A stretch of DNA of 64,000 bases from a bacterium (GTDB lineage Bacteria; Pseudomonadota; Gammaproteobacteria; GCA-002705445; GCA-002716945): the NCBI GenBank assembly GCA_029979505.1, contig JAPOHH010000001.1, forward strand, positions 55,034 through 119,033. The letters run 5' to 3'. Numbering within the stretch: position 1 is the first letter of the stretch; each line of letters starts with the position of its first letter. Below are positions 47,952 through 64,000 of the stretch, piece by piece. The notes under the pieces are model-generated. The model worked only from the letters and a program-made list of their open reading frames with translations. It did not search any database and was not told the DNA's origin. Made by a program: the position numbers and the translations under genes.

Positions 47952-49133
47952 CTATATTTTTCTATCATTTAATTGAGACATAAATATATATGTCATGAAA
48001 ACTAAAAATATAATCGCCTGGTGATGAGCAAATAGAGATTGAGTCATCATATAGCCAAAGCCTGAAATAACTGTTATCACTCCTAAATGTGCAAACACAG
48101 TTTTATTTCTAAGAAAAATTACAAGAATATATATAAATACTAACAAGAAAGAGGAAAATACAAACACTCCATATTTAACAAAAATATCCAGATATTCATT
48201 ATGTGCATGATCATGATTGGTAATGTTAATTTTATCTCTCGCAATTTTATTAGTAATTTCTTTTTTAAAATTTTGTGCTCCAATACCTAGATACATATAT
48301 TTTTCAATTTGATTAAGTGAGAATTTAAAATAATATAATCTTTCATTTTCTGATACATTATCATCCGTAGAATTTTCAATATTATTAAAATCAATAGTTC
48401 TTACAGATTCAAACAAAAGGTAAATACGGTCCGATATTGGTGTGGTAGTAATAAGAGCTGAGCTAATAATTAATATAGAAAATATAAATATCTTACTTTT
48501 TTTATTAAAAAGTATTATGAAAGGTAAGCAGAAAAATAAACCTACTAACGCCCCTCTTGTTCCAGTATAAAATACTAAGTACAAAGAAAGTAAAACAAAA
48601 AAAGTTAAAAGTATCTTATGTAAATATCTTTTTTGATAATTATAAATCACCAAAAGGTATAGAGCCAATGTCATCAACATATTCCCATATGTTAAGACTA
48701 CACTTGAGGATCCGGCAAACCGTAAATCTAAGTTACCTGTAAAGACATGCGCTATAAACAACGCAGAACCAAGTAGAACAGATAAATAGATTGCATATTT
48801 TAAGTCATCAAGAGTTATCTTAAATTGTTTCATTAAGAGGTATATTGGAAACAATAAGAGAGGACGAGTATAATTATCAATTTCATGGAGAGGTGTACTA
48901 TGAATTATCGAGCTAATAATGATAAATGATGTAAATAGAAGTAAGAATGATAGTAAGTATTTATCACTATCATATAAGGTATACTTACCTCTTAGTAAAT
49001 AAAATATACTAATCAGTAGAAGTAATATAAGCAAGAAATTAGCTATTTCTCTTACAAAAAATGTAGCCGGAATAAATGATAAGATTAATAATTTTAAGAC
49101 ATTCGAATAAGTTAATGATGGAATTTTATTCAT
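47952..49133 (-). CDS. O-antigen ligase/polymerase family membrane protein (Wzy_C-like)
   Basis: Polytopic membrane protein with FYTGTRGALVG in a periplasmic loop, typical of the O-antigen ligase family. Confidence 0.5.
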   Translation of the reverse strand: MNKIPSLTYSNVLKLLILSFIPATFFVREIANFLLILLLLISIFYLLRGKYTLYDSDKYLLSFLLLFTSFIIISSIIHSTPLHEIDNYTRPLLLFPIYLLMKQFKITLDDLKYAIYLSVLLGSALFIAHVFTGNLDLRFAGSSSVVLTYGNMLMTLALYLLVIYNYQKRYLHKILLTFFVLLSLYLVFYTGTRGALVGLFFCLPFIILFNKKSKIFIFSILIISSALITTTPISDRIYLLFESVRTIDFNNIENSTDDNVSENERLYYFKFSLNQIEKYMYLGIGAQNFKKEITNKIARDKINITNHDHAHNEYLDIFVKYGVFVFSSFLLVFIYILVIFLRNKTVFAHLGVITVISGFGYMMTQSLFAHHQAIIFLVFMTYIFMSQLNDRKI

Positions 49134-49168
49134 TTTCTAATTATATACTATAATATTAAATTGATTTT

Positions 49169-50311
49169 ATGAAAAAGATCTTGCACTTGTCGAAATTCAA
49201 TGCTCCTCATTATGGCGGTATTGAGCGTGTAGTTGAGACTATAACTAATGGGTTATCCTGTAGATATAAGCATATAATTATCTCTTTTAAAAAATCATTA
49301 CAAGAAGACTCAATAAAAATAAAGAATGTAGAAAATATAAGTGAAAGAAGTTTAATAACAATTTTATCTCAACCAATAAATATTAATTATTTTCTTCACG
49401 TAAAGCAATATATCAATAATGTTGATTTAGTACATATTCATGCTCCAAATCTGGTTGCTTTCTTAGCTATGATAATGTTCAGGAAGAATACAAAATTTAT
49501 TGTACATTGGCATAGTGATATTATTAAGAATTCAACTATAACTTTTTTTACTAAATTTTTAGAAAAATATATACTTAATAAGTCTTATAAAATAATTGCA
49601 ACTTCAGAAAACTATGCTAAACATTCAGCATCACTCAGCAAGTACCAAGATAAAATAAAAATAATTCCAATAGGTGTGGCAAAAGATAAATTTAACTCTG
49701 AAGTTGATATAGAAAATCTATCTAATAAATCTATCTATAAAAAGAATAAAAATAAAAAAATAGCGTTATATGTAGGGAGATTTGTAAAATATAAATCATT
49801 AATCAATTTTATTAAATCTGCGGTTAATCTAACTGATGAAGCTGTAATATATTTAGTTGGAAATGGCCCTGAAAAGAAAAAAATGGTTGAAACAATTAAA
49901 AATTGCAAGCTGAGCAATAAGGTATATATTCTTGATGGAGTTGATGACCAAGAACTAAATTATCTATATAAAAAAGCAAGAGTGTTTTGCTTACCATCAA
50001 CTACAAAAGCTGAAGCCTTTGGTGTAGTCTTAGCAGAAGCATTGATGAATAAAATACCATTAGTTGTTTATAACATCCCAGGCTCAGGTGTTAACTGGGT
50101 AAATGAAAATAATATTACTGGCTATAATATTGAAAATTATCAAAAAGATATTTTTATAAAAAAAGTAAATGAAATAATATTATCTGATGAACTTCATAGA
50201 AAACTTTCATCTGGTGCGGAAAAAAGATACGAAAGATATTTTACAGCGGATTCTTTTATTGATTCTATAGAAAAAATCTACGAAGAAATAATTAATTCAA
50301 ATAATTTATAA
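49169..50311 (+). CDS. Glycosyltransferase family 4
   Basis: GT-B C-terminal motif EAFGVVLAEALMNKIPLV. Confidence 0.75.
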   Translation: MKKILHLSKFNAPHYGGIERVVETITNGLSCRYKHIIISFKKSLQEDSIKIKNVENISERSLITILSQPININYFLHVKQYINNVDLVHIHAPNLVAFLAMIMFRKNTKFIVHWHSDIIKNSTITFFTKFLEKYILNKSYKIIATSENYAKHSASLSKYQDKIKIIPIGVAKDKFNSEVDIENLSNKSIYKKNKNKKIALYVGRFVKYKSLINFIKSAVNLTDEAVIYLVGNGPEKKKMVETIKNCKLSNKVYILDGVDDQELNYLYKKARVFCLPSTTKAEAFGVVLAEALMNKIPLVVYNIPGSGVNWVNENNITGYNIENYQKDIFIKKVNEIILSDELHRKLSSGAEKRYERYFTADSFIDSIEKIYEEIINSNNL

Positions 50312-51362
50312 ATTCATAAATAAAATTATCTTCACTAAATTTTTTTGAATTCTCTTTACAATCATAAAACATATTTTTAGCTTTTTGAGAATCAAGATTT
50401 TCGACGGCAATTTTAATATCTTTAATTGTTGGTTCCTCATCTAGAATTATACCAGTTACTTCATGCTTTATAATCTCAACAATACCTCCGCTTTTAGAAA
50501 TTATTACTGGTTTTCCATGAGCATTAGCTTCTGCTGCTGACATACCAAAATCTTCATTTTTTGGTATATAAACGCAAGCAATTGATTGATTAATCAGTTC
50601 TTGTAATTCGTTATCTACAAGCCATCCAGTAAATTTAATATTTTCTTTTGCAATTCTCTTAAGAGTTGAAAGTTCTGATCCACCAGATGCAACAATAAGT
50701 TGTTTATCTGGCATTTCATTAAATGCTTTAATAATTAGATCTACTCTCTTATACTTTTCAAGTCTTCCAATGGATAAATAATATCCTTTATTATCATTTT
50801 TTAAATTATTAGACTGTTTGATAGGTGGATATAAAACATGAGCATCAAGGTTAGTATGTTCTTTTATAGTTCTTTTAGAATGCATGGAATTTGTAAGTAT
50901 ACAGTCCATCTTATGTAGATTTAGTAAATATAATCTTTTATATATAGAAAAGGCTAATTTAACAAAAGGTCTTAGTAAATAATTGAATCTATTGAGATAG
51001 TTTTCATTCATTTTATATATAAATCTTGGGAGTGTATGGCAATAATAAATCTTTTTACCTTTTTTTTGATATACAGAATTTAAGATTGAGAAAACGCCAC
51101 TATAGATGACTACATCATAATTATTTATATTTTTTATTTTAAATAAAAATCTTAAAAATACTTGTATAACCCTAGGTATTAACGGCAGGTTACATAATAC
51201 ATCTACTTTATCGAGACCATCTGAGTATATATAGTTTTTATTTATCCATCCAACAATTATTTTTGCTTGAATTTTATTTTTCAAGATTGTAACAAGTTTT
51301 TCTGCTCCTCCATTAACGTGAAAGTAATCATGAAGAATAAGAACATTTTTAATTTTATTCAT
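50292..51362 (-). CDS. Glycosyltransferase family 4
   Basis: EDFGMSAAEANAHGKPVI motif. Confidence 0.75.
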   Translation of the reverse strand: MNKIKNVLILHDYFHVNGGAEKLVTILKNKIQAKIIVGWINKNYIYSDGLDKVDVLCNLPLIPRVIQVFLRFLFKIKNINNYDVVIYSGVFSILNSVYQKKGKKIYYCHTLPRFIYKMNENYLNRFNYLLRPFVKLAFSIYKRLYLLNLHKMDCILTNSMHSKRTIKEHTNLDAHVLYPPIKQSNNLKNDNKGYYLSIGRLEKYKRVDLIIKAFNEMPDKQLIVASGGSELSTLKRIAKENIKFTGWLVDNELQELINQSIACVYIPKNEDFGMSAAEANAHGKPVIISKSGGIVEIIKHEVTGIILDEEPTIKDIKIAVENLDSQKAKNMFYDCKENSKKFSEDNFIYEFINYLN

Positions 51363-52944
51363 TTTCTTGAATAAACTCTTTTTTATTTATTATGCCCTCG
51401 CATATTAAATCTAATCCATTATCATTTCCGGGTAATAATTCGCTAGTTTTAGTGACATTTAGACCAAACGGAGAAAAGTATTTCGAGTACTTAATTGATT
51501 TAAGTTTTATCATTCTTTGAAAGAAAATATAGTATGCAAATTTTTTTGCTTTAATAATTAAATCGTCACTCAATATTTTACTATATGGTAGCATATCTAG
51601 CTGTTTTTTATATTCATTAACCGAATCCACATCTATTGTAAATCCTTTATTACGCGCCCAAGATTCTCCTGCTACAATAACTGGTTTACCTGTACAGGAA
51701 ATTTCTATTGCCATTTTTGTACCATAAACAATACAACTATCACTTATTTCAACAAGATTATATGTTGAAATATTACTTGATGCTTGAACTATAAATATAT
51801 TCTTTGGAATCGTTTTATATTTTTTTATGATTTCTTCATATACACTTTGATTCGATGGGACGGTACCTAAAATCTCTCCGGGGTGTATCCTTATAACTAG
51901 TTGAGTCTTCTCATTTTTTTTAAAATAATCAATAGTATAAAAAAGCCAATCAAGCATCGATTTAAATATATGTCCTTTGAAATGCAGTTGAGCATCCCAC
52001 AAAACATTCGTAAGAAGTGTTACGATTGGTTTTTTTTGATCAATACCAAGAGAACTATACATATCTTTATTTAGGGATTTATTTTGAAAGGAAATCCAAT
52101 CATTTGTTCCTGTTTTTCTGCTATTTAGATAATTCATAAGCTTTATGTTCTTTTCTAAGCACCATTTCATTCGAGTCCAATTATTATCATCAGTAAGAAT
52201 TGTTCTGTGATATGTATCATTATGACTAAATAAAACAGTTCCTTTTCTATAAGATGGTCCCCAATTAATCACATGAATATTTTTCTTTCTACATACGTCT
52301 CCAATTATTCCTTGAGGAACATAAATTCCATGATGAAATACTACGCTTGTGAAATTGTATGTATTGGTTATATTATCAATAACTCTTTTTGTTAGTTCAG
52401 ATGCTTTCTTATATTTTTTTAATATTTGATTATGTATAGGGCCATTAAGTGTACCTCTTCCGAGATATCTCAGTGCACCAGCTCGTGCATGTTCATCAAT
52501 ACTGATATTTATTTCATGATTACTGTGATAATTATAATCACTATATTTTAAAACTTCTATACCAAGAGAATCATACATTTTTTTTGAATGATGGTATGAT
52601 GAACTACATATCGATTTGTTTCCTTCTAAAAGAAATCTTTTTTCATTTAACCAGTAAGATTCACATTCTTGACATGCATCAATAAGACCATCATTTAAAA
52701 GAATTTTTACTGATACACCTCTTAATGTTAATGCAATTGCTAATAAACTTTCAAAAGAGCTACATGGCCATAACCCACCGGTACTTGTTGCTATAAGAAT
52801 TTTTGATTCAGAAGAATTAACTACCCCCGCATCTTTGATAACTTTATCCCAATTAAATCTTGCAGATGTATAAGGCCTTATTTTTCTTAAAACAAATTCA
52901 TATAAAAAACTTTTTCTTATTTTTTTTGTTATTGAATTAGACAT
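51355..52944 (-). CDS. Putative polysaccharide biosynthesis transferase with R-x-HP motif (capsule KpsS/KpsC-like or TagF-like GT-B; family uncertain)
   Basis: VIRIHPGE followed by ...ISDSCIVYGTKMAIEISCTGKPVI, resembling the HP motif and C-terminal region of Capsule_synth/Glyphos_transf families (from memory). Confidence 0.35.
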   Translation of the reverse strand: MSNSITKKIRKSFLYEFVLRKIRPYTSARFNWDKVIKDAGVVNSSESKILIATSTGGLWPCSSFESLLAIALTLRGVSVKILLNDGLIDACQECESYWLNEKRFLLEGNKSICSSSYHHSKKMYDSLGIEVLKYSDYNYHSNHEINISIDEHARAGALRYLGRGTLNGPIHNQILKKYKKASELTKRVIDNITNTYNFTSVVFHHGIYVPQGIIGDVCRKKNIHVINWGPSYRKGTVLFSHNDTYHRTILTDDNNWTRMKWCLEKNIKLMNYLNSRKTGTNDWISFQNKSLNKDMYSSLGIDQKKPIVTLLTNVLWDAQLHFKGHIFKSMLDWLFYTIDYFKKNEKTQLVIRIHPGEILGTVPSNQSVYEEIIKKYKTIPKNIFIVQASSNISTYNLVEISDSCIVYGTKMAIEISCTGKPVIVAGESWARNKGFTIDVDSVNEYKKQLDMLPYSKILSDDLIIKAKKFAYYIFFQRMIKLKSIKYSKYFSPFGLNVTKTSELLPGNDNGLDLICEGIINKKEFIQENE

Positions 52945-52962
52945 TTATGTATAGTCTATTTT

Positions 52963-54030
52963 TTATTTAAAAAGATAAGTATCAATTTGTTTATTACATA
53001 ATTCAGAAATATCAACTTTATCAATATAACCTTTATGCCAATTAACAATATTTTCAATAGTCTTTTTTAATTTCCATTTTGGATGCCACTGCAAATATTT
53101 TTTTGCTTTTTCATTATTTAACATCAACAATGATGCTTCGTGCGGATGCTTACCATCCTGATTACATATTTCAATTTCAGCCCCGTATGATTTAACTATC
53201 AAAGATGCCAACTCATATACAGAACAGTTATTCTCATCATCAGGACCAAAGTTCCACCCGCCTGAAAATTTTTTAGGATCTTTATATAACTTTTCTGCTA
53301 ATTTTAAGTATCCCGATAAAGGTTCTAGTACATGTTGCCAAGGTCTTGTTGAATTAGGATTTCTTATATCCAACGAATTATTTTTTTGACATGATTGTAA
53401 AATATCAGGTACTAGACGGTCATCAGACCAATCACCGCCACCTATTACATTACCTGCTCTAGCAGATGCAAGACCTACTTCATTGATACTATAATAAGAT
53501 TTCCAAAATGAATTTGTTATTAATTCAGAACAAGCTTTGCTGCAGCTATACGGGTCGTGTCCACCCATCCTGTCGTTTTCAGTATATGGAACATTAGTTT
53601 CATGATTTTCATAGCATTTATCAGATGTAATATTTATAAATGCTTTCAGTGATTTACACGACATAGATGTTTCTAGTAGATTAACTGTTCCCATGATATT
53701 AGTTGAATACGTGCTTACAGGATCTTGATATGATTTCCTGACAATTGCTTGTGCTGCCATATGAATAATGATTTCAGGCTTTGTATCGCTAATAAGATTC
53801 TTTACAGATTCATAGTTTGATAAATCACCAATATAGGAATTTATTTTTTTACCAATCAGGGATAGTTCATATAAATTAGGTTTTTTAATTGGATTCAAAG
53901 AAAATCCAGATACATTAGCTTCAAGTTTATTAAGAAGAATTGTTAACCATGAACCTTTAAATCCCGTATGACCAGTTATTAAAACATTTTTATTTTTCCA
54001 AAAGTCTTTATCTACTACCATACTTTCCAT
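52963..54030 (-). CDS. rfbG: CDP-glucose 4,6-dehydratase
   Basis: VLITGHTGFKGSWL Rossmann motif, YxxxK in DPYSCSKAC, and overall RfbG-like sequence. Confidence 0.85.
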   Translation of the reverse strand: MESMVVDKDFWKNKNVLITGHTGFKGSWLTILLNKLEANVSGFSLNPIKKPNLYELSLIGKKINSYIGDLSNYESVKNLISDTKPEIIIHMAAQAIVRKSYQDPVSTYSTNIMGTVNLLETSMSCKSLKAFINITSDKCYENHETNVPYTENDRMGGHDPYSCSKACSELITNSFWKSYYSINEVGLASARAGNVIGGGDWSDDRLVPDILQSCQKNNSLDIRNPNSTRPWQHVLEPLSGYLKLAEKLYKDPKKFSGGWNFGPDDENNCSVYELASLIVKSYGAEIEICNQDGKHPHEASLLMLNNEKAKKYLQWHPKWKLKKTIENIVNWHKGYIDKVDISELCNKQIDTYLFK

Positions 54031-54827
54031 TTAGCTTTTCTATTATCCCACATGTTGTCTAGTAAGTTTTTATCTCTTAGAGTGTCCATTGGCTGCCAAA
54101 AATCTTTATGTATATATGCGGATAATTGTCCTTCACTTGCAATTTTTTCTAATGGCTCCTTTTCCCAGATTATCTGATCACCGTCAATATAGTCTAGCAC
54201 TTTTGGTTTGAGAACAAAGAAACCGCCATTGATGTAACCATTATCAGAAACAGGTTTTTCAATAAACGATTCAACTTTATCGCTATCAATTTTTAAAGAT
54301 CCAAATCGTCCTGGTGGATTTACTGCGGTAACTGTTGCTAACCTATTTGACTTAGTATGAAAATCAATTAATTTTGAAATATCTACATTTGATAAACCGT
54401 CACCATATGTAAAGCAGAAGTCATCATCACCTATAAATTTTTTTACAGCTTTAAGCCGACCGCCAGTTAATGTAGATTCGCCTGTATCTACTAAAGTAAT
54501 TTTCCAAGGTTCACTCTTATGGGCATGTATATTATGACTGTTATTTTCTAAATCAATTGTTAAATCAGAGACATGAAGAAAATAATTAAAAAAATATTCC
54601 TTAATTTGATATCCCTTATATCCACAACAAATAATAAATTCATTGATTCCATAATGGGAATATATTTTCATGATATGCCACAGGATGGGTTTTCCTCCTA
54701 TTTCTATCATAGGTTTAGGCTTGAGATTACTCTCTTCAGAGATTCTAGTCCCTAGACCACCAGCTAAAATAACGCATTTTTTAACGTGATTTGACAAAAG
54801 AGTACCCCTCTTGATGTTGCTCTGCAT
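54015..54827 (-). CDS. rfbF: Glucose-1-phosphate cytidylyltransferase
   Basis: KCVILAGGLGTRISEE matches the RfbF N-terminus. The true start may be the TTG about 14 codons in (AAGAGGGG SD upstream) rather than the first ATG. Confidence 0.85.
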   Translation of the reverse strand: MQSNIKRGTLLSNHVKKCVILAGGLGTRISEESNLKPKPMIEIGGKPILWHIMKIYSHYGINEFIICCGYKGYQIKEYFFNYFLHVSDLTIDLENNSHNIHAHKSEPWKITLVDTGESTLTGGRLKAVKKFIGDDDFCFTYGDGLSNVDISKLIDFHTKSNRLATVTAVNPPGRFGSLKIDSDKVESFIEKPVSDNGYINGGFFVLKPKVLDYIDGDQIIWEKEPLEKIASEGQLSAYIHKDFWQPMDTLRDKNLLDNMWDNRKAKWKVW

Positions 54828-58153: not shown

Positions 58154-59413
58154 CTACTGTATAACAATATTTGATTCAATTATTTCTGAAGGACGTCTAT
58201 TTTTTAAAAATATTGATGATCTGTCAACATCCTCCTTATTTGCCATAGAATTTAGCAAATCAATAAGGTTTTCAGGTTTTACAGGAGCTATAATGCTCTC
58301 GTCAATCATTTGCTTAAAATGAGGTGCATTTGATTGTGTTTGATCAATACTATTATCAATAATTGCTATAGATTTTACACCTAAAGCATAACTGTCAATC
58401 ATTGCTGATGTGTTTAGTCCAAAAACTAAGTAAGATTTCAAAATTATCTCTGACAAATAAAGCTCAGATTGCTCGCTATGTGTTAATCCAACATTATCAT
58501 TATCAAATATAATTGACTTTGGTAGTCGTTCTTTAGAAATTAATTTAGCTGGATGAGAACGCACAATTAAACTGTATTCAGATAATTTACTCTTCTTGAT
58601 TGTTTCATATAAAAATAAAATATTTTTATTTTCATTACTTTTAATATTAGCTGAGGAACCAATATAAAGAATTTGTTTATCTTTTTTTATATCAATATTA
58701 TGCGAAATCCATTTTTCAAAAAATAATGATCCAGATATTATAATCTTTTCATTATTAATATGATGAATCTTCTTACAATATTCTTGTTGAAGTTTATTCC
58801 AAACATATACATAGTCAATTTGATTTAAAACCAGAGATTTAGTTGTTAAATTATCCCAAGTGAGTATCGGGTAATGAACTTTTAATCCTAAACATTTTGC
58901 AGCTAAAATATATTCATTCTCATTAGAAAATCTAAGATTAGCAGCTGTTGATATCATACAGTCATAGTTCATTGTTTTAATTCTCTCTTTAATAGATTTA
59001 TCGACAGGCAGGAGAAGATATAAATTATAAAATAAGCTGAATAGTATTTTTGATTTTAAAATCCTCTCGAATGTCTTATATTTACACAGGTATCTAATTA
59101 TTTTAGGCTGGTACAATATCCATCTCGTAATATAGAATTTCGTCGTTTCCTTTCTTCTTAAATATGACATCAATGTGATAAATTCGAATAAATATTTTTT
59201 CATATTGAAAAACAATCCACTACCAGAAATCATGGAATCATATTTAATTCTAAGCCCTTTTAAAAGTTTATGTTTTTTTAATTCAGTTATGTTTTTGGAT
59301 GACCAGGTTTCATCTAGATAAAGCGTACAGTCATTATTTATCGAAAGTTTACTTATCAGTTTGTATACATATGGTACATGGTCATATGATCTGATTGTAA
59401 TAAGTATTTTCAT
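58154..59413 (-). CDS. Putative TagF/KpsS-like transferase with R-x-HP motif
   Basis: VRSHPAKL followed by ...SYLVFGLNTSAMIDSYALGVKSIAI, resembling the Glyphos_transf/Capsule_synth catalytic region (from memory). Confidence 0.35.
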   Translation of the reverse strand: MKILITIRSYDHVPYVYKLISKLSINNDCTLYLDETWSSKNITELKKHKLLKGLRIKYDSMISGSGLFFNMKKYLFEFITLMSYLRRKETTKFYITRWILYQPKIIRYLCKYKTFERILKSKILFSLFYNLYLLLPVDKSIKERIKTMNYDCMISTAANLRFSNENEYILAAKCLGLKVHYPILTWDNLTTKSLVLNQIDYVYVWNKLQQEYCKKIHHINNEKIIISGSLFFEKWISHNIDIKKDKQILYIGSSANIKSNENKNILFLYETIKKSKLSEYSLIVRSHPAKLISKERLPKSIIFDNDNVGLTHSEQSELYLSEIILKSYLVFGLNTSAMIDSYALGVKSIAIIDNSIDQTQSNAPHFKQMIDESIIAPVKPENLIDLLNSMANKEDVDRSSIFLKNRRPSEIIESNIVIQ

Positions 59414-59419
59414 TTAATA

Positions 59420-60562
59420 TTAAGATTCGGTTACGGTAACAGACGAACCTACAAAACCATCTGGAGGAACGCTACCAATACTTCTTTCATTCATACATGA
59501 TCGATCATTAGTCATTATCATAGGTACGGGTACCTTCCATACTTTTATATCATCAACAAATAATGTCAGAAACAAATAATAATTAATTTTTCTAAATTTT
59601 ATGTCATCAACATTGAATGAAAATGTTGTTGGTTTTGATAGTAAAAATTCATGATTATAAGAAAATAATCTAAAGTGACCAAGATTTTTTCGATCATGCG
59701 CTAGAGACCACCCAAGAGAACATTTTGTGTTTTTAAGTCCGTTGTTATCAATTAATATTGATAGGGATAAATTTGCATGTTCAATGTCAATGTCAGTAAA
59801 CGAATAAGAGATATCACTAATAGTAGGTGTAGCATTATTATCTCTAGCTGAATCATTATAAATAGGTGCATTAACTCTCTTTAAAAAAGGAATTATCGGC
59901 AGTGAGACCTCTTCATTATCTGGGTTAATGATAGATATAGTCTGAAAACCATATAGTTCATTGTTATGAACATTTTGATCAAGGTTTGATAATAATATAT
60001 ATTTATTATCCTTATTAAGCTTATCTAAATGTCTAGAATCAAAACCTGTTAGTATTATTGTTTTATTAGGTATACTTAAAGATAATATAAAAAATAATAA
60101 ATCACGATACAATTTCTTCTGATCAACATCTGCAGCTTTAGTACTGTAATCAAATTCTTTTTTTAATTTTTGTATATATTGTTCAACTTCATCAGGAATT
60201 TCATCAAAAATATCTTTCACTATGTAATCAAGCATGACATGTTCCCTATAAAGGGGTCTGAAAAATTTTGGCGCTTTAGCATGTATTGATATATATTCAA
60301 AATTTATATTTTTTTTATAATGCCCTGCTCTATCATGAATAGCATTGACAACTAAATCATAATATGACTTGTTTTTCATAACATATATTTTATTACTATC
60401 ACTTGGTAGGTTAATTTTGTAAGTTAAAAAGTCTTTATGGTAAATGTCTTTTGTAAATAAAGAATTAAAAAGTATATTTCTTCTTCTTTTGTGGATTTTG
60501 AGTTTTTTTGTTTCAAATAACTCTACTGACAATGTATCAGACGATTGAATCTTTATAGGCAT
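59420..60562 (-). CDS. Hypothetical protein (380 aa), no recognisable motifs
   Basis: Long ORF embedded in the polysaccharide operon with 26-nt overlap onto the upstream gene. No Walker motifs seen. Confidence 0.5.
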   Translation of the reverse strand: MPIKIQSSDTLSVELFETKKLKIHKRRRNILFNSLFTKDIYHKDFLTYKINLPSDSNKIYVMKNKSYYDLVVNAIHDRAGHYKKNINFEYISIHAKAPKFFRPLYREHVMLDYIVKDIFDEIPDEVEQYIQKLKKEFDYSTKAADVDQKKLYRDLLFFILSLSIPNKTIILTGFDSRHLDKLNKDNKYILLSNLDQNVHNNELYGFQTISIINPDNEEVSLPIIPFLKRVNAPIYNDSARDNNATPTISDISYSFTDIDIEHANLSLSILIDNNGLKNTKCSLGWSLAHDRKNLGHFRLFSYNHEFLLSKPTTFSFNVDDIKFRKINYYLFLTLFVDDIKVWKVPVPMIMTNDRSCMNERSIGSVPPDGFVGSSVTVTES

Positions 60563-61268
60563 ATTTAATTTCCTTATCTACTGATTTATAAAAGTATAAC
60601 GATAGAGCTATTAATATAATAGTGTGAATTTTAAGAATCATCAGCTTCTCAAGAAAAGCTATGTCATAAAAGAATATAATCTCTATAAAATTAAAGATAG
60701 AAAAAAAGGCAAAACTATCAGATATTAAAATATTTATTTTCAAGAAAAGCAAAAGTATTATTGGAACAAACTGAGGTGCATTTACAAAATCTATAGCATT
60801 TATAGACAATGTCCCTATCTTTACGAAAATTGGCATGGTAATTACATACAATAAAAGTGGATAAAATAAATGGTCTGTGTATGAAACATCTACAAATATA
60901 GAAAGAAGTACATATAGGATATTCAAAAAGAACAAACTTAGAATAAAATCACATAAATTATAAATTAGTGCGTCATTAATTGAAAATGATGTTAGTTTAA
61001 TATACCTTCGCATTCTACGAGCATTAGTTACAATATTAATTGTACAGTACCAATAAATAGTCCATCCAAATGTCATAGTTAGCAAAGTATTAATGTTCTC
61101 AATATCAGGAAATACACCTTGTATCATAAGAAAATATGACCCAAACATAAGGAGTGGCTTGAAAATATACCAAAACCATCCAGAAATTGTTAGGTCATTC
61201 CAATAAAATGTTTCAAGTTTATAAGCTATAAATCCTTTATTTGTCATTTTCGTGTAAATATTTTTCAA
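60537..61268 (-). CDS. Putative ABC-2 type (Wzm/KpsM-like) polysaccharide-export permease
   Basis: 243 aa, about 6 TM. N-terminal block LTISGWFWYIFKPLLMFGSYFLMIQGVF resembles the KpsM/TagG signature region. Confidence 0.4.
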   Translation of the reverse strand: MKNIYTKMTNKGFIAYKLETFYWNDLTISGWFWYIFKPLLMFGSYFLMIQGVFPDIENINTLLTMTFGWTIYWYCTINIVTNARRMRRYIKLTSFSINDALIYNLCDFILSLFFLNILYVLLSIFVDVSYTDHLFYPLLLYVITMPIFVKIGTLSINAIDFVNAPQFVPIILLLFLKINILISDSFAFFSIFNFIEIIFFYDIAFLEKLMILKIHTIILIALSLYFYKSVDKEIKYAYKDSIV

Positions 61269-63183
61269 TACAAAAAGTTAAATTAAAGCTGTCTAGATTT
61301 GCATGTTTTAAGACTAGTTCATTTTCTCCACATTTAGGGAAATCATCTAATCCAATAGCTTCAATTCTTGGGGCATTTGCTCCCCAATCAATAGATGTTA
61401 TCCGATCTCTTAATCCACCAATTAGATAATGATTTTCAAGGACAATAATAAATTTTATATTTTCAGTATAATTTTTTAACCATGGTCGTTTTACTTCATT
61501 TAACCATGGGAAATTTATAACTTTAATATTAATATGTCTTTCAGTTTTATACTTGATTGCTACAGAATGCGCAAGATTACATGCTATTGGGCCATATGCA
61601 ATTATTGCGATTTCTTCACCATCATCTATAACTAATCCTTTACCTGCATTCAGTCTAATATCTTTTGGATAGTCAAAGTTAATTTCTATTGGCAGAGAAC
61701 AAAGTCTAATATAAGTACTATATTCTGTTTCTGGACTGATTGCCCAATTTAAAACATTATTTAATTCTTCTTCACAACATGGTTCAACTATTCTGAGACC
61801 TGGGATTGCTGCAAGCGATGATATGTCTCGAACCGCTTGATGAGAGTGTCCTGGCCCTCCTGGTAAAACTCCAGCTAGAGAACCTACATAGATAATTTTT
61901 TTTCTTTCAGTTGCATTGTTATAAATTTGTTCGTTAGGTCTTGTAGATAAAAAGCAAGAAAAAGAATGTACAATAGGCAAATAACCACTTAAGGATAGTC
62001 CACCAGCTGTTGAGACCATATCTTGCTCTGCAATACCACACTCAATAAATCTTTCTGGAAATTTATTTTTAAATGGGATGAGACCCGTATCAAGAATTAA
62101 ATCTGCATCTAAAGCTACAATCTTATTATTTTTTTTTGCATGCTCAACTAATTGTTCACTGTATGCTGCAATTAAATTATCCGGTTTTTTTTGCGTAACA
62201 GTGTTCTTTTTTTTCTTTTCTGTTGAACTAATAGAGATTTTATCTAGATTGAATTGATCTTGATAGTGTTCTACTGTTTCTATAAGTTCATTAGCAGCAT
62301 TTAAATATTCTTCAGGTGTTGGTGCTCCGCTGTGATATTGATAATATTTATCATTAGGTTTTGCAGTGTGCTCCATGAATGAAACACCCTTGCCTTTAAT
62401 TGTATTCGCGAGTAAAAATTTTGGTCCTGACTTTTCTTTTAATCTATCTATAGCATTTTCTAGTGATTCTAAGTCATTCCCATCACATTGATCTACATTC
62501 CAACCAAAAGATTTTACTTTTGATAAAATATCACCAAGATCAGAAACTTCGCTAAGTAAAGTGTCAGATTGCAGTTTATTATGATCAACAATTACAAATA
62601 GTTCATCCATATTATAATTCACAGCTGAAACTAAGGATTCCCAAAATTGACCCTCTTGAAGCTCGCCATCGCCTGTAAGTACAAATACTCTGCCAGAGAT
62701 TTTAGATAGCCTTCTTGCAAAAATCATACCCTTAGCTTTAGATATACCCATTCCCAACGATCCAGTATTTGTTGCTATACAGGGTGTGTTGATGTCTGGA
62801 TGTCCAGGCAGACCATTAATTTTACGGAGTTTATCAATTAGATGGAAATCAAGATAACCATGAGCAATTAGCATTGAATAGAATCCAGGTGCATCATGTC
62901 CCTTAGAACTAAAGAATATATCTCCGTCGACTGTCGGGTTATTGTTATGGAAATTAAGCTCTTTTAGAAACAACCAAGAAAATATATCTAAACTACTAAA
63001 GCTACTACCTATATGGCCTGAGCCAGAATTTGAAATCATATACAATGTGTTGAGTCTACAAAGGTCAGCTATAATTTTTGCTTTTAATCTTAGGTCAATC
63101 TTTTGTGAGAGAATGTATTGAAATATATTTTCTCCAATAAAATATAATGTTCCGTCAATTGCTTTTCCTATTTTATCTCCCAT
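61237..63183 (-). CDS. Transketolase, fused N-terminal (ThDP-binding) and C-terminal (Pyr/TKC) halves
   Basis: N-terminal half has SKGHDAPGFY, GLPGHPD and GDGELQEGQFWE; C-terminal half has FIECGIAEQDMVSTAGGLS. Both halves lie in a single 648-aa ORF. Confidence 0.85.
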   Translation of the reverse strand: MGDKIGKAIDGTLYFIGENIFQYILSQKIDLRLKAKIIADLCRLNTLYMISNSGSGHIGSSFSSLDIFSWLFLKELNFHNNNPTVDGDIFFSSKGHDAPGFYSMLIAHGYLDFHLIDKLRKINGLPGHPDINTPCIATNTGSLGMGISKAKGMIFARRLSKISGRVFVLTGDGELQEGQFWESLVSAVNYNMDELFVIVDHNKLQSDTLLSEVSDLGDILSKVKSFGWNVDQCDGNDLESLENAIDRLKEKSGPKFLLANTIKGKGVSFMEHTAKPNDKYYQYHSGAPTPEEYLNAANELIETVEHYQDQFNLDKISISSTEKKKKNTVTQKKPDNLIAAYSEQLVEHAKKNNKIVALDADLILDTGLIPFKNKFPERFIECGIAEQDMVSTAGGLSLSGYLPIVHSFSCFLSTRPNEQIYNNATERKKIIYVGSLAGVLPGGPGHSHQAVRDISSLAAIPGLRIVEPCCEEELNNVLNWAISPETEYSTYIRLCSLPIEINFDYPKDIRLNAGKGLVIDDGEEIAIIAYGPIACNLAHSVAIKYKTERHINIKVINFPWLNEVKRPWLKNYTENIKFIIVLENHYLIGGLRDRITSIDWGANAPRIEAIGLDDFPKCGENELVLKHANLDSFNLTFCIEKYLHENDK

Positions 63184-63931
63184 TACAACTCCTATGTTTT
63201 TTAAATTTAGGCAAAATTACATGTTTTGTGCGAATATAATGTTCAGCTAATAACCAGTCTTCGTGAGTATTTATATCAAAACCTTCAAGAGCTTTTGTAA
63301 TAAATGGCAAAATTAATGATCCAGAAATACTTTTTTTAACAACAAGAGTTTTAAGCCATGCAATCTCAAGACTAGCATTTTGAACATAGATTTTTGGAAG
63401 TAGTGCATATTGATTGCTATGCCATGGTGTCCCATTAATAGTTTTATTTAAAATTGGAGTCATATACTTCTTACCAAGTGACCACATTTTTCCTGGATGT
63501 TGTCCACATAGTTCAACAGCCCTAAGAGAATCAAATTTTAAACTTTTATTAAATAATTTAAATGCTCTTTTAATAGTTTTTTCTGTTCTAAATGGACTGG
63601 TAGGTCTTAATATACTATACACATTAAAGTCATATCCTTCGTTTTGTAAAACATCTGTAGTAAATTTTACCCATTCATAATCAGGTGAAGTTGATGATGC
63701 TATTTTTTTTGGTCTAAAAATAACTTCAGCACCATATTGGCTGGCGATATCAGCATAATATTCGGAGTCAGTTGAACAGATAACACGATTAAAACATTTA
63801 CATTCTAATGCAGAGTAAATGGTATAGGCGAGCAATGGACGGTTCTTTAGTAATTTTATATTTTTATCAATAATTCTTTTTGATCCTGATCTTGCAGGAA
63901 TAAGTGCTATCGCTTTTATGTTTTTACTCAT
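63173..63931 (-). CDS. CMP-sugar (acylneuraminate/nonulosonate/Kdo-type) cytidylyltransferase, NeuA/KdsB superfamily
   Basis: AIALIPARSGSKRIIDKNIKLL...ILRPTSPFR is typical of NeuA/PseF-type cytidylyltransferases. Confidence 0.8.
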   Translation of the reverse strand: MSKNIKAIALIPARSGSKRIIDKNIKLLKNRPLLAYTIYSALECKCFNRVICSTDSEYYADIASQYGAEVIFRPKKIASSTSPDYEWVKFTTDVLQNEGYDFNVYSILRPTSPFRTEKTIKRAFKLFNKSLKFDSLRAVELCGQHPGKMWSLGKKYMTPILNKTINGTPWHSNQYALLPKIYVQNASLEIAWLKTLVVKKSISGSLILPFITKALEGFDINTHEDWLLAEHYIRTKHVILPKFKKHRSCNGR

Positions 63932-64000
63932 GTCTAATTGTTTTCATAAAAAAATGAAATATTTTTTATTTCTGTATATACATCTAGTGCTTCCAATCCA

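What the first reader, a model, noticed from the sequence alone, without database searches (positions are those of the whole stretch)
47952..64000. Very AT-rich, mosaic cell-surface polysaccharide locus (at least 16 kb, continues past the window)
From the ligase-like gene to the window end almost every gene is polysaccharide-related, nearly all on the minus strand with short overlaps. The sequence is visibly more A/T-biased than the flanking housekeeping DNA. The locus mixes O-antigen-type (ligase, GT4s, rfbFG), capsule/teichoic-type (ABC-2 permease, R-x-HP transferases) and nonulosonate-type (NeuA-like) components. This is a typical signature of a horizontally exchanged, strain-variable surface-glycan island and the most likely place for novel enzymology in this window.
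Basis: partly seen in the sequence, partly recalled or inferred. Interest (0 to 1): 0.5.

Follow-up and report, generated by a model that had tools for sequence, protein, structure and literature searches.

The report
Clade-specific surface polysaccharide gene cassette
A 26-kb block of 24 sugar-building genes sits next to a housekeeping gene in one lineage of an uncultured marine bacterium; it is an ordinary kind of cell-surface polysaccharide locus, and it looks stably inherited rather than strain-variable, but it carries a widespread six-gene pathway for an unidentified acidic sugar for which I found no published description.

Summary
Window 47952-64000 is a co-directional, overlapping polysaccharide gene cluster that runs past the window. 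Public contigs with identical proteins show the whole cassette: 24 genes, 26,081 bp, between gmhA and fhs.

The AT bias is real but small (28.1-28.8% vs 31.5% GC). Codon usage and dinucleotide signature match the rest of the window.

The "horizontally exchanged, strain-variable" reading is only partly supported.
- Five sister lineages have gmhA directly next to fhs, so this is a lineage-specific insertion.
- Inside the clade, relatives at 99.9%, about 97% and about 83-85% nucleotide identity all keep the cassette, and it diverges in step with its flanks.
- There are no mobility genes or border repeats.
- Island genes occur on as many public contigs as the flanking genes.

Content:
- a CDP-3,6-dideoxyhexose route (RfbF, RfbG, an E1-like dehydrase without Fe-S cysteines, an RmlC-like epimerase, a reductase);
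- ManC;
- at least seven glycosyltransferases, including an orphan GT-A pair and two or three KpsC-like R-x-HP enzymes;
- a very divergent Wzm-fold permease with no ATPase in the cassette;
- a Wzy_C-family protein;
- a module NeuB-KdsC-SDR-ALDH-cytidylyltransferase-transketolase-like, colinear in many unrelated environmental bacteria. Its product is unknown.

The parts
46228..47901 (-). fhs (formate-tetrahydrofolate ligase). This conserved core gene marks the proximal border of the cassette.
   Evidence: Pfam FTHFS, E 2.4e-267. It is syntenic in all relatives.
47902..47951 (.). Junction between the cassette and fhs. It lacks the inverted-repeat element that is conserved upstream of fhs in lineages with an empty site.
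   Evidence: Sequence comparison of filled and empty sites.
47952..49133 (-). Wzy_C-family membrane protein, 393 aa, about 10-12 hydrophobic segments. It could be an O-antigen ligase (WaaL), a polymerase or a PglL-type transferase; the sub-type is not resolved.
   Evidence: Pfam Wzy_C, E 2.4e-20. Hydropathy profile. No PDB sequence match.
49169..50311 (+). GT4 glycosyltransferase, 380 aa. It is the only plus-strand gene of the cassette.
   Evidence: Pfam Glycos_transf_1, E 7.5e-33, and Glyco_transf_4. No NCBIfam equivalog reaches its cutoff.
50292..51362 (-). GT4 glycosyltransferase, 356 aa.
   Evidence: Pfam Glycos_transf_1, E 1.7e-26.
51355..52944 (-). KpsC/KpsS-like R-x-HP transferase, 529 aa. 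It is the candidate transferase for the CMP-sugar made by the transketolase module. A 512-aa paralogue lies beyond the window.
   Evidence: Pfam Capsule_synth, E 0.0018, 18.2 bits, below the cutoff of 20. A family profile (A2, with R352/H354/P355 invariant) hits only KpsC chains in the PDB, best E 0.0035. A homologue lies on the same contig as the transketolase-like gene in 15 of 46 metagenome loci, usually just downstream. A 42%-identical orthologue is in the Methylobacter locus.
52963..54030 (-). RfbG, CDP-glucose 4,6-dehydratase.
   Evidence: NCBIfam TIGR02622, 478.8 bits against a cutoff of 278.
54015..54827 (-). RfbF, glucose-1-phosphate cytidylyltransferase.
   Evidence: NCBIfam TIGR02623, 448.1 bits against a cutoff of 300.
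54898..55905 (-). Orphan GT-A-fold glycosyltransferase, 335 aa, with a D-P-D motif. It is a paralogue of 57099-58136.
55895..57133 (-). 412-aa protein, possibly a divergent GT-B glycosyltransferase.
   Evidence: Only a faint Pfam Glyco_trans_1_4 match, E 0.048, at residues 304-351. This assignment is an inference.
57099..58136 (-). Second orphan GT-A-fold protein, 345 aa, 48% identical to 54898-55905.
   Evidence: Alignment A3. Direct DNA repeats D1-D4, spaced about 2.2 kb apart.
58154..59413 (-). 419-aa R-S-HP protein, possibly a third KpsC-like or 'surface carbohydrate biosynthesis' type transferase.
   Evidence: NCBIfam TIGR04396, E 1.1e-5, 24.8 bits, far below the cutoff of 125. RSHP motif at 285. 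hhalign against A2 aligns the motif region, but only at E 0.053.
59420..60562 (-). 380-aa protein of unknown function. Its gene overlaps the permease gene by 26 nt.
   Evidence: No Pfam match even at E 1. No Walker A motif. Not related to an ABC ATPase by hhalign or to a Wzt by BLASTP.
60537..61268 (-). Very divergent permease with the Wzm/TarG fold (ABC-2 type), 243 aa. Public gene calls start it at an internal ATG, giving 236 aa.
   Evidence: Only 7 representatives in 1.84 billion proteins. AlphaFold pLDDT 71.5, pTM 0.72. The nine best Foldseek PDB matches are Wzm (6oih, 7k2t, 6m96), TarG (9cfl, 6jbh) and M. abscessus Wzm, with TM about 0.5 and probability 0.54-1.0. An N-terminal 'G-x-x-W-x-x-x-x-P-L-L-M' stretch aligns with a Methylobacter Wzm.
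61237..63183 (-). Transketolase-like ThDP enzyme, 648 aa, with fused N-terminal, pyrimidine-binding and C-terminal domains and a remodelled substrate channel.
   Evidence: Pfam Transketolase_N, Transket_pyr and Transketolase_C. Below every NCBIfam cutoff: 343.5 bits against 488. Closest PDB relatives are human and split-chain transketolases. Family-invariant replacements at human Arg318, Ser345, His416, Asp424 and Arg474.
63173..63931 (-). CMP-ulosonate-type cytidylyltransferase, 252 aa.
   Evidence: Pfam CTP_transf_3, E 2.1e-24. The best NCBIfam model is PseF at 120 bits, below the cutoff of 206. A separate KdsB-like gene lies at 1288-2007.
63934..64000 (-). 3' end of the aldehyde dehydrogenase gene (482 aa). 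The rest of the gene lies beyond the window.
   Evidence: L110 and L081 match the window over their overlaps (L110 100% over 1,729 nt; L082 99.9% over 10.8 kb), and their proteins are found on the NCBI 230,597-bp contig that also carries the window's proteins.

Best explanation
Window 47952-64000 is the fhs-proximal 16 kb of a 26,081-bp, 24-gene surface-glycan biosynthesis cassette. The host is an uncultured marine gammaproteobacterium with about 31% GC.

Origin. The cassette lies between gmhA and fhs. Sister lineages have gmhA directly next to fhs. An ancestor of this clade acquired the cassette, it has since been inherited vertically, and its composition now matches the genome.

Proposed working (inferred from gene content):
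1. Three activated sugars are made.
   (a) A CDP-3,6-dideoxyhexose, via RfbF, RfbG, an E1-like PMP/PLP 3-dehydrase that lacks the Fe-S cluster (ColD-like), an RmlC-like epimerase and a 277-aa reductase.
   (b) GDP-mannose, via ManC/PMI.
   (c) A CMP-activated 3-deoxy-2-ulosonic acid derivative, via the conserved module NeuB-like synthase, KdsC-like phosphatase, SDR, aldehyde dehydrogenase, cytidylyltransferase and transketolase-like ThDP enzyme.
2. The backbone phosphoglycosyl transferase (Bac_transf, upstream of gmhA) starts the chain on undecaprenyl phosphate.
3. Two GT4 enzymes, two orphan GT-A enzymes and a probable GT-B enzyme extend the chain on the cytoplasmic face.
4. Two or three KpsC-like R-x-HP enzymes add the ulosonate, possibly as a chain cap, and a methyltransferase may modify it.
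5. The glycan crosses the inner membrane by an ABC-type route that uses the Wzm-fold permease.
6. The Wzy_C-family protein ligates it to its final acceptor.
For: Extent and borders.
- Contigs L081-L084 and L110-L113 encode proteins identical to the window's. These proteins are on the NCBI 230,597-bp contig that also carries the window's proteins.
- The contigs give the order Bac_transf, 47 aa, 255 aa, GmhA, then [RfbH-like ... Wzy_C], then fhs.

Insertion.
- In five other fhs lineages (P0091, P0148, P0125, P0110, P0107) GmhA is 63-67 nt from fhs.
- Synteny is complete on both sides.

Vertical inheritance.
- Cassette identity tracks flank identity at three depths of divergence.
- Composition is native.
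- Prevalence equals that of the flanks.

Acquisition.
- Transketolase-like homologues drop from 92% to 57% identity with nothing in between.
- The GT-A pair and the permease are near-orphans.

Sugar pathways.
- RfbF, RfbG and ManC score above their equivalog cutoffs.
- The dehydrase is closest to E1 (3bcx, E 1.4e-59). It has His at the position of E1 His220 but none of the Fe-S cysteines, and no E3 gene is present.
- The RmlC-like protein scores 144 bits against a cutoff of 156.

The module.
- All six genes are colinear in at least 16 metagenome loci and in Methylobacter sp. GCA_004322395.1.
- A homologue of the KpsC-like gene is on the same contig as the transketolase-like gene in 15 of 46 loci.

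Transferases.
- KpsC is the only PDB family hit by the A2 profile.

Export.
- The permease has the Wzm/TarG fold.
- No Wzx-type family was detected in any cassette gene.
- The Methylobacter locus couples the same module and the same KpsC-like gene with ABC2_membrane and ABC_tran/Wzt_C.
Against: - No ABC ATPase (Wzt) is encoded in the cassette. There is no Walker A motif, and the adjacent 380-aa protein is not an NBD. The export step is therefore incomplete as read.
- Only 4 of 30 long loci around the transketolase-like gene have a Wzt-like gene within reach.
- The permease assignment rests on a medium-confidence model built from 6 sequences, with Foldseek E-values of 0.017-1.6.
- The KpsC-like assignment is sub-threshold by sequence, and I could not model the protein.
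- The product of the module is unknown.
- The Wzy_C protein could be a polymerase or a protein O-oligosaccharyltransferase instead of a ligase.
- The diverged contigs used for comparison are polished assemblies with many frameshifts. I take them to be long-read assemblies (the records end in '_pilon'), so their identity values are approximate.
- The taxon is known only from NCBI labels of sister MAGs ('Gammaproteobacteria bacterium'). 'SAR86-like' is my guess.
Confidence: 0.6

Rival explanations
1. One reading: a recently and repeatedly exchanged, strain-variable glycan island. On this view co-occurring strains of one species carry different cassettes at this site, as in the hypervariable surface-glycan regions of other marine bacteria.
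For: - The general region is a hotspot. L102 and L099 are 96.4% identical over 13.2 kb and encode the same fhs protein, yet they differ completely upstream of the 256-aa gene. One has Bac_transf plus core genes. The other has GT1, Epimerase_2, Polysacc_synt_2, HisF/HisH-like and Asn_synthase genes.
- The cassette is absent from five sister lineages.
- GC3 is slightly lower than in the core (0.186 against 0.211, p 0.002).
Against: - Every junction-spanning contig of the window's own clade has the same cassette, from TARA samples, BPAM samples, contigs with Great Barrier Reef site names and other samples. L130 keeps the same gene order across 22 kb of the cassette interior.
- Cassette divergence equals flank divergence at 99.9%, about 97% and about 83-85% identity.
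- Codon usage and dinucleotide signature cannot be told apart from the core.
- There are no mobility genes, tRNA or border repeats.
- Island genes are as prevalent in public assemblies as flank genes.
Confidence: 0.12
2. The cassette makes a capsule-like or lipid-anchored glycan rather than an O-antigen. The KpsC/KpsS-like enzymes would build an ulosonate linker or polymer on a lipid acceptor, as in group 2 capsules. Alternatively the glycosyltransferases would extend the lipid A core directly (LOS-type), with MsbA doing the flipping. In either case the Wzy_C protein and the Wzm-like protein play other roles.
For: - Two or three KpsC-like R-x-HP proteins are present.
- The permease fold is shared with KpsM, which ranks 11th.
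- No Wzt, Wzx or Wzz was detected.
- LpxK, KdsB and PagL are in the same window.
Against: - No KpsT, KpsE or KpsD homologues are in the cassette.
- A phosphoglycosyl transferase and a Wzy_C-family protein bracket the locus, which points to an undecaprenyl-linked intermediate.
- In Methylobacter the same module and the same KpsC-like gene sit with rml genes and Wzm/Wzt_C, an O-antigen-type arrangement.
Confidence: 0.18
3. The cassette serves general protein O-glycosylation. The Wzy_C-family protein would be a PglL-type oligosaccharyltransferase that moves an undecaprenyl-linked oligosaccharide onto periplasmic or surface proteins.
For: - From my own knowledge, Pfam Wzy_C covers PglL/PilO enzymes as well as WaaL and Wzy. 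The present match does not discriminate between them.
- An ulosonate-containing short glycan with a defined set of about 7 glycosyltransferases would fit an oligosaccharide.
Against: - No target protein or pilin gene is nearby.
- A Wzm-fold permease is typical of polymer export.
- No flippase of the PglK or Wzx type was detected.
Confidence: 0.07

Closest known systems
ABC-transporter-dependent O-antigen loci with a terminal beta-Kdo cap (Klebsiella O12 / Raoultella terrigena WbbB with Wzm and Wzt-CBM; recalled from my own knowledge)
   Same: - The chain is assembled in the cytoplasm by several glycosyltransferases.
- A dedicated CMP-ulosonate transferase is present.
- The permease has the Wzm fold.
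- A separate Wzy_C-family ligase is present, and there is no Wzx, Wzy or Wzz.
- The Methylobacter counterpart of the module sits with ABC2_membrane and ABC_tran/Wzt_C.
   Different: - No Wzt ATPase is in the cassette.
- The ulosonate transferases resemble KpsC (GT107-like), not WbbB.
- The sugar is not plain Kdo: it has its own NeuB-type synthase plus SDR, ALDH and a transketolase-like enzyme.
- Initiation appears to use a Bac_transf phosphoglycosyl transferase.
E. coli group 2 capsule system (KpsC/KpsS beta-Kdo transferases, KpsMT, KpsED)
   Same: - R-x-HP proteins related to Capsule_synth are present, and KpsC is their only PDB sequence relative.
- The permease is of the ABC-2 type.
   Different: - The match is below Pfam's threshold.
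- The proteins have a single module of 512-529 aa.
- There is no KpsT, KpsE or KpsD.
- The locus is bracketed by a phosphoglycosyl transferase and a Wzy_C protein.
CDP-3,6-dideoxyhexose pathways of Yersinia pseudotuberculosis and Salmonella (asc/ddh/rfb: RfbF, RfbG, E1 = RfbH, E3 = RfbI, epimerase, reductase)
   Same: - RfbF and RfbG are equivalogs.
- The dehydrase is closest to E1 (3bcx) and has the His that replaces the PLP lysine.
- RmlC-like and reductase genes follow it, as AscE and AscF do.
   Different: - The E1-like protein lacks the [2Fe-2S] cysteines, and no E3 reductase gene is present. The mechanism is therefore more likely ColD-like.
- The genes are split between the two ends of the cassette.
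Kdn / Kdo / nonulosonic acid pathways (NeuB-type synthase, KdsC-type phosphatase, CMP-synthetase; for example Bacteroides thetaiotaomicron Kdn-9-P synthase and phosphatase)
   Same: - The same three core steps are encoded.
- The phosphatase also matches the Kdn-9-P phosphatase model at 84 bits, below its cutoff of 180, and just misses the KdsC family cutoff (104.8 against 106.95).
- PMI, which could supply mannose-6-P, is encoded nearby.
   Different: - NeuB, the phosphatase and the cytidylyltransferase all score below their equivalog cutoffs.
- Three further enzymes (SDR, a KGSADH-like ALDH, a transketolase-like enzyme) are fixed members of the module.
- None of the aminotransferase, acetyltransferase or dehydratase genes of the Leg/Pse routes is present.
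Flexible 'glycotype' genomic islands of marine bacteria (for example SAR11 HVR2; metagenomic islands)
   Same: - It is a large surface-glycan gene block at a fixed chromosomal site with conserved flanks.
- Its content differs between lineages.
- It is slightly AT-richer than the core.
   Different: - Here the content is fixed within the clade across roughly 83-100% nucleotide identity.
- It is as prevalent as the flanks.
- Within-species replacement was seen only in a sister lineage, at a neighbouring position (L102 against L099).

Membership tests
Strain-variable (flexible) genomic island | Different or absent content at the same site in genomes of the same species | tested here: not met
   L091 (99.9%), L092, L094-L096 (about 98%) and L093 (about 97%) all carry the same cassette junction or genes. 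The sample is about 6 contigs, so the test has limited power.
Strain-variable (flexible) genomic island | Absent from the homologous site in more distant relatives, with conserved flanks | tested here: met
   Five fhs lineages have GmhA directly next to fhs, with full synteny on both sides.
Strain-variable (flexible) genomic island | Atypical composition or codon usage | tested here: inconclusive
   GC is 28.8% against 31.5%, and GC3 is 0.186 against 0.211 (p 0.002). Codon-usage correlation is r = 0.994 (permutation p 0.07), and the dinucleotide distance of 21 lies within the core range of 12-30.
Strain-variable (flexible) genomic island | Mobility signatures at the borders (tRNA, integrase, IS elements, direct repeats) | tested here: not met
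   The only tRNAs are at 22.8 and 26.3 kb. There are no integrase or transposase domains. There are no border repeats.
Strain-variable (flexible) genomic island | Under-representation in metagenomes relative to the flanks | tested here: not met
   Proxy only: contigs per 90%-identity protein cluster. Flank genes are on 7-29 contigs (median about 25). Island genes are on 15-38 contigs (median about 24). True read recruitment could not be run.
ABC-transporter-dependent O-polysaccharide pathway | Wzm-type (ABC-2) permease | tested here: inconclusive
   No Pfam ABC2_membrane match. The nine best Foldseek matches of the model are Wzm or TarG, with TM about 0.5.
ABC-transporter-dependent O-polysaccharide pathway | Wzt ATPase encoded next to the permease | tested here: not met
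   No ABC_tran domain or Walker A motif in any of the 24 cassette genes or the 3 backbone genes. The 380-aa neighbour is not an NBD.
ABC-transporter-dependent O-polysaccharide pathway | No Wzx flippase or Wzz; a ligase is present | tested here: met
   No MOP or Polysacc_synt flippase family and no Wzz family was hit. A Wzy_C-family protein is present.
KpsC/KpsS beta-Kdo transferases (Pfam Capsule_synth, GT107) | Pfam gathering score; conserved HP motif; fold | tested here: inconclusive
   18.2 bits against a cutoff of 20. R-x-H-P is invariant in 15 family members. The family profile hits only KpsC in the PDB, E 0.0035.
Transketolase (EC 2.2.1.1) | ThDP-binding GDG...N motif, activating Glu and catalytic His residues | tested here: met
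   GDGE171-174, N202, H57, H96, H128, H284 and E386 are invariant in the family, and I read them as aligning with human His37, His77, His110, His258 and Glu366.
Transketolase (EC 2.2.1.1) | Substrate-channel residues that bind the sugar phosphate and set stereochemistry (human Arg318, Ser345, His416, Asp424, Arg474) | tested here: not met
   The family-invariant states are: Arg318 deleted, then Asp365, Leu436, Pro444 and Ser496 in place of the other four. The residue list comes from PMC8016368; their roles come from my own knowledge. The protein is also below all NCBIfam transketolase and DXS cutoffs.
N-acetylneuraminate / pseudaminate synthase (NeuB / PseI) | Equivalog score | tested here: not met
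   247.8 bits against 399.65 (NeuB) and 205.2 against 340.25 (PseI). The Pfam NeuB domain is present. The protein belongs to the NeuB superfamily, with substrate unknown.
CDP-4-keto-6-deoxyglucose 3-dehydrase E1 (RfbH/DdhC/AscC) | His in place of the PLP lysine; [2Fe-2S] cysteines; an E3 partner | tested here: not met
   The His is present (SFYGSH aligned with SFYPAH). The cysteine-rich segment of E1 (WGRDCYCAPGCDNTC) is WGRSSSIFGEDSESI here. No E3-type gene is present. NCBIfam scores 309.8 bits against 423. The first feature is met; the other two are not.
RfbF / RfbG | Equivalog score | tested here: met
   448.1 bits against 300.25, and 478.8 against 278.45.
GT-A fold glycosyltransferase (335-aa and 345-aa paralogues) | GT-A fold with a DxD motif | tested here: met
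O-antigen ligase WaaL, as opposed to Wzy or PglL | Ligase-specific periplasmic-loop residues or activity | not tested
   Only membership in the Pfam Wzy_C family is shown. No PDB relative was found by sequence.

The most novel reading that the evidence does not exclude
The colinear module NeuB-like synthase, KdsC-like phosphatase, SDR, KGSADH-like aldehyde dehydrogenase, cytidylyltransferase and transketolase-like ThDP enzyme may be an undescribed pathway to a CMP-activated, oxidised or chain-shortened ulosonic acid. Its dedicated KpsC-like transferase often accompanies it.

One chemically coherent route:
1. PEP and an aldose phosphate (for example mannose-6-P from the adjacent PMI) are condensed to an ulosonate phosphate.
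2. The phosphate is removed.
3. The SDR oxidises the penultimate carbon, giving a terminal ketol.
4. The transketolase-like enzyme cleaves off the C2 unit. Its phosphate-binding residues are all replaced, which fits a non-phosphorylated substrate.
5. The aldehyde dehydrogenase turns the new aldehyde into a second carboxylate.

The product would be a 3-deoxy-2-ulosaric acid, the class of sugar to which Dha of plant rhamnogalacturonan-II and prasinophyte walls belongs. The biosynthesis and nucleotide form of Dha are still unknown (PMC3355719; PMC12168206).

I found no description of this module in the searchable literature.
Probability: 0.15. Interest if true: 0.75.

Novelty: new member of a known kind. 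Interest (0 to 1): 0.4.

Why it matters
As a surface-polysaccharide locus it is ordinary. Its value is as a corrective and as a lead.

Corrective. A large, AT-leaning, mosaic glycan cluster beside housekeeping genes need not be a strain-variable island. Here it is a clade marker that has been stable across roughly 83-100% nucleotide identity. This matters when phage-host or 'glycotype' diversity is inferred from single genomes.

Lead. The cassette exposes a six-gene module built around a transketolase-like enzyme. The module is widespread in freshwater, soil and marine bacteria and has no assigned product. If it makes a new CMP-activated acidic sugar, that would add a building block to bacterial glycobiology. 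It could also give a testable route to ulosaric acids.

The cassette also holds:
- an E1-like 3-dehydrase without an Fe-S cluster;
- an orphan GT-A family;
- a Wzm-fold permease that profile methods cannot detect.

Tried and rejected
1. A scan of genome contigs with fhs returned only hits of 74% identity or less (Burkholderiales and others), none syntenic. My first guess of SAR11 was dropped: Pelagibacteraceae fhs genes are only 63-66% identical.
2. Literature look-ups gave nothing usable for taxonomy. The terms were the sample project (PRJEB22097), the sister MAG accession and a guessed Tara Oceans MAG project.
3. Promoter and terminator scans were uninformative in this AT-rich DNA: 129 promoter-like sites against 124 expected, and 2 terminator-like sites against 4.8 expected.
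4. Rfam found only two tRNAs, far from the locus.
5. Single-sequence PDB searches for the 529-aa, 419-aa and Wzy_C proteins found nothing meaningful.
6. I rejected the idea that the 380-aa protein is a degenerate Wzt ATPase or carries a Wzt_C domain.
7. Consistent linkage of the module to Wzm/Wzt is not supported: 4 of 30 loci.
8. The afdb50 fold library was not available.
9. Repeat search found only the paralogy of the two GT-A genes; the other matches are short, AT-rich and look like chance.
I got round this with ids from the listing of cluster members.

Full report
**1. The observation**

The window is uniformly AT-rich (30.6% GC). From 47952 to 63931 there are 14 ORFs. Thirteen are on the minus strand and one (49169-50311) is on the plus strand. 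Neighbours overlap by 8-35 nt.

The stretch 47952-64000 has 28.1% GC, against 31.5% for 1-47951.
- Per-gene GC is 0.280 against 0.308 (Mann-Whitney p 0.0095).
- GC3 is 0.189 against 0.211 (p 0.023).
- The locus proteins are richer in the amino acids F, Y, M, I, N and K (0.412 against 0.369).
- Part of the bias is therefore amino-acid composition.
- Core stretches reach the same values, for example 26.1% at 38-40 kb.

The bias exists but is modest.

**2. Gene content inside the window**

Sequence families:
- a Wzy_C protein at 47952-49133;
- two GT4 glycosyltransferases;
- a 529-aa protein with a sub-threshold Capsule_synth match;
- RfbG and RfbF, both far above their equivalog cutoffs;
- a fused transketolase-like protein, below every NCBIfam cutoff;
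- a CTP_transf_3 cytidylyltransferase whose best model is PseF, also below cutoff.

Six ORFs between 54898 and 61268 have no Pfam match. One of them, the 419-aa protein, has a far-sub-threshold NCBIfam hit.

The 335-aa and 345-aa proteins:
- They are 48% identical paralogues.
- They are near-orphans. There are four clusters in 5.8 billion proteins, and at least three of them are this cassette's own genes.
- A medium-confidence model (pLDDT 69, pTM 0.72) has the GT-A glycosyltransferase fold.
- A D-P-D motif is invariant.

The 243-aa membrane protein:
- It has 7 representatives in 1.84 billion proteins.
- Its model (pLDDT 71.5, pTM 0.72) finds Wzm and TarG permeases as its nine best PDB matches, with TM about 0.5.

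The R-x-HP motif:
- It is present in the 529-aa and 419-aa proteins, and in a 512-aa paralogue beyond the window.
- A 15-member family profile (R352, H354 and P355 invariant) hits only KpsC chains in the whole PDB, best E 0.0035.

The remaining two ORFs:
- The 412-aa protein has only a faint GT-B-type match.
- The 380-aa protein remains unknown and is not an ABC ATPase.

**3. Beyond the window**

Exact-sequence look-ups found the same locus on public contigs.
- Their upstream proteins are also on an NCBI contig of 230,597 bp.
- That contig carries the window's own proteins as well, so I take it to be the window's source.

In the direction of transcription the order is:
- Bac_transf phosphoglycosyl transferase (419 aa), a 47-aa ORF, a 255-aa unknown and GmhA;
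- then the cassette: RfbH-like, RmlC-like, a 277-aa reductase, ManC/PMI, the 512-aa KpsC-like protein, a methyltransferase, NeuB-like, KdsC-like, SDR, aldehyde dehydrogenase;
- then the window genes, ending with Wzy_C;
- then fhs.

The cassette is 26,081 bp and 24 genes long (window-equivalent 47952-74032) and has 28.8% GC. No further export genes were found.

**4. Is it a horizontally exchanged, strain-variable island?**

Close relatives of fhs are abundant: 93-98% amino-acid identity, with some contigs up to 1 Mb.

Evidence for a lineage-specific insertion:
- In five other fhs lineages, GmhA lies 63-67 nt from fhs.
- The upstream genes in those lineages are pgsA, uvrC, udg, fabH, plsX, rpmF, maf, thiL and nusB.
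- The downstream side is syntenic with the window as far as acpP.
- These lineages are only about 66-80% identical to the window in flank DNA.

Evidence for stability inside the clade that has the cassette:

| Contig | Cassette identity | Flank identity |
|---|---|---|
| L091 | 99.9% overall (one alignment across cassette and flank) | same alignment |
| L093 (TARA) | 95.5-98.6% | 97-98% |
| L107, L108 | 81-90% | 82-89% (DPRP and DCC1-like 73-75%) |
| L130 | 84.7-85.3% over 22 kb | not covered |

- Short junction contigs (L092, L094-L096, L109) all continue into Wzy_C.
- The cassette therefore diverges in step with its flanks, which is the pattern of vertical inheritance.

Composition and borders:
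- Codon usage correlates with the core at r = 0.994, against 0.996 between two halves of the core (permutation p 0.07).
- The dinucleotide distance is 21, against 12-30 for core controls.
- No tRNA, integrase, IS element or border repeat is present.

Prevalence:
- As a crude stand-in for read recruitment I counted contigs per 90%-identity protein cluster.
- Flank genes are on 7-29 contigs and island genes on 15-38.
- There is no deficit for the island.

Evidence that the cassette was acquired:
- Sister lineages have no orthologue of the transketolase-like gene. Homologues drop from 92% to 57% identity.
- Several cassette proteins are near-orphans.

True within-species replacement does occur nearby in a sister species. 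L102 and L099 are 96.4% identical over 13.2 kb and then unrelated upstream of the 256-aa gene.

Verdict: an old, clade-fixed acquisition at a glycan hotspot. No strain variability was seen in the window's own lineage.

**5. Sugar pathways**

(a) CDP route
- RfbF and RfbG make CDP-4-keto-6-deoxyglucose.
- The DegT-family protein is closest to the E1 3-dehydrase (3bcx, E 1.4e-59).
- It has His where E1 has His220, in place of the PLP lysine.
- It has no cysteines where E1 has its cysteine-rich segment, and no E3 gene is present.
- I infer a ColD-like 3-deoxygenation, followed by the RmlC-like epimerase and the 277-aa reductase.
- The product would be a CDP-3,6-dideoxy-hexose of the ascarylose type.

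(b) GDP-mannose
- ManC/PMI scores above its equivalog cutoff.

(c) The ulosonate module
- NeuB-like: 248 bits against a cutoff of 400.
- KdsC-like: 105 against 107.
- The SDR's best models are PRK09186 (a generic 'oxidoreductase') and the flagellin-modification protein PtmA.
- The ALDH's best model is alpha-ketoglutaric semialdehyde dehydrogenase.
- The cytidylyltransferase is PseF-like.
- The sixth gene is the transketolase-like enzyme.

A separate KdsB-like gene at 1288-2007 shows that ordinary CMP-Kdo synthesis is provided elsewhere.

**6. The module is a conserved unit**

I scanned metagenome contigs with an alignment of the transketolase-like family and then ran tblastn with the cassette proteins.

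Among the 46 loci of at least 8 kb:

| Gene present | Loci |
|---|---|
| cytidylyltransferase | 37 |
| SDR | 35 |
| ALDH | 31 |
| NeuB | 30 |
| KdsC | 20 |

- At least 16 loci show all six genes in the same order and on the same strand. Many of the rest are cut off by contig ends.
- A homologue of the 529-aa KpsC-like protein is on the same contig in 15 loci, usually just downstream of the transketolase-like gene.
- In Methylobacter sp. GCA_004322395.1 the same module sits in an O-antigen-type locus. That locus also has rmlBDAC-type genes, a 42%-identical KpsC-like orthologue, GT2 and GT1 glycosyltransferases, and ABC2_membrane plus ABC_tran/Wzt_C.

Aligned to human transketolase, the family keeps the ThDP-binding and catalytic residues. 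It replaces, invariantly, the substrate-channel residues: Arg318 is deleted, Ser345 becomes Asp, His416 becomes Leu, Asp424 becomes Pro and Arg474 becomes Ser. The residue set is taken from PMC8016368. That these residues bind the phosphate and set stereochemistry is from my own knowledge.

So this is not a canonical transketolase, and it probably acts on a non-phosphorylated substrate.

I found no description of this module in the searchable literature.

**7. How the locus most likely works**

Shown:
- the gene families;
- the borders of the cassette;
- its distribution among lineages;
- the conservation of the module.

Inferred:
- Initiation is on undecaprenyl phosphate by the backbone phosphoglycosyl transferase.
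- Extension is cytoplasmic, by GT4, GT-A and GT-B enzymes.
- The KpsC-like enzymes add the ulosonate, perhaps as a chain cap.
- Export uses an ABC-type route through the Wzm-fold permease.
- The Wzy_C protein performs the transfer to the final acceptor.

The weakest link is the missing ATPase: none is encoded in the cassette. A capsule-like or LOS-like product and protein O-glycosylation remain open rivals.

**8. Novelty**

The locus is a new member of a well-known kind.

The most novel reading not excluded is that the module makes a CMP-activated ulosaric or otherwise chain-modified ulosonic acid. The route would be SDR oxidation, transketolase-type C2 cleavage and ALDH oxidation. I give this about 15%. 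It would be of real interest because no biosynthetic route to ulosaric acids such as Dha is known (PMC3355719; PMC12168206).

**9. Caveats**

- The diverged comparison contigs are polished assemblies with frameshifts. I take them to be long-read assemblies, so identities are approximate.
- Both structure models rest on six-sequence alignments.
- The taxon is known only as 'Gammaproteobacteria bacterium', from the labels of sister MAGs. 'SAR86-like' is my unverified guess.
- The strain-level sample of the window's own species is small.

Noticed in passing
L099:9938-10000, L114:2992-3058, L124-L126 and L102 (same position); compare window 47902-47951: In all lineages with an empty site, the GmhA-fhs intergenic region carries a conserved element with an inverted repeat (TTGATGTTT, 7-9 nt, AAACATTATATTTA) about 30 nt upstream of the fhs start. 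It could be an operator, a terminator or a small regulatory RNA for fhs. In the window's clade it is absent and is replaced by unrelated sequence after Wzy_C.
   Followed up: partly
L102:1-8487 compared with L099:1-8487: Two contigs that encode the identical fhs protein and are 96.4% identical over 13.2 kb differ completely upstream of the 256-aa gene. L102 has a second type of glycan cassette where L099 has Bac_transf plus core genes. The L102 cassette holds GT1, UDP-GlcNAc 2-epimerase-like, Polysacc_synt_2, HisF/HisH-like and two Asn_synthase-like genes. This is a genuine within-species replacement in a sister lineage.
   Followed up: partly
window 54898-58136: The two orphan GT-A genes flank the 412-aa gene. 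Their DNA repeats are spaced about 2.2 kb apart and are 71-76% identical. This is an old local duplication of a family seen almost nowhere else.
   Followed up: yes
window 341-2007: LpxK (341-1291) and a KdsB-like CTP_transf_3 gene (1288-2007) open the window. Lipid A / Kdo core functions are therefore encoded 46 kb from the cassette, and the cassette's cytidylyltransferase is a second, specialised copy.
   Followed up: partly
window 41446-42042; L114:8818-8978: A PagL-like lipid A deacylase gene lies between the DCC1-like and SNase genes in the window and in most sister lineages. It is missing from the P0148 lineage (L114-L116). Two lineages (L124, L125) have an extra DUF2256 mini-ORF there. 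This looks like a small second variable spot that touches LPS.
   Followed up: no
window 37528-39842: The core genes Aminotran_4, tmk and holB have 24-27% GC, as AT-rich as the cassette. Low GC alone does not mark foreign DNA in this genome.
   Followed up: yes
window 23881-25287 and 42502-43980: There are two photolyase-family genes: a classical DNA photolyase and a DPRP/cryptochrome-like protein. This fits a sunlit surface-ocean organism.
   Followed up: no
window 44072-46162: The ABC transporter next to fhs is labelled a tungstate transport system by JGI annotations of near-identical proteins. The pairing with the folate enzyme fhs is conserved in all lineages examined.
   Followed up: no
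L110:1515-2422 and homologues (L099:8435-9342, L114:1356-2401): A 46-47-aa ORF and a 255-302-aa protein with no detectable family lie between the phosphoglycosyl transferase and GmhA in every lineage. They form a conserved backbone pair of unknown role in glycan synthesis.
   Followed up: no
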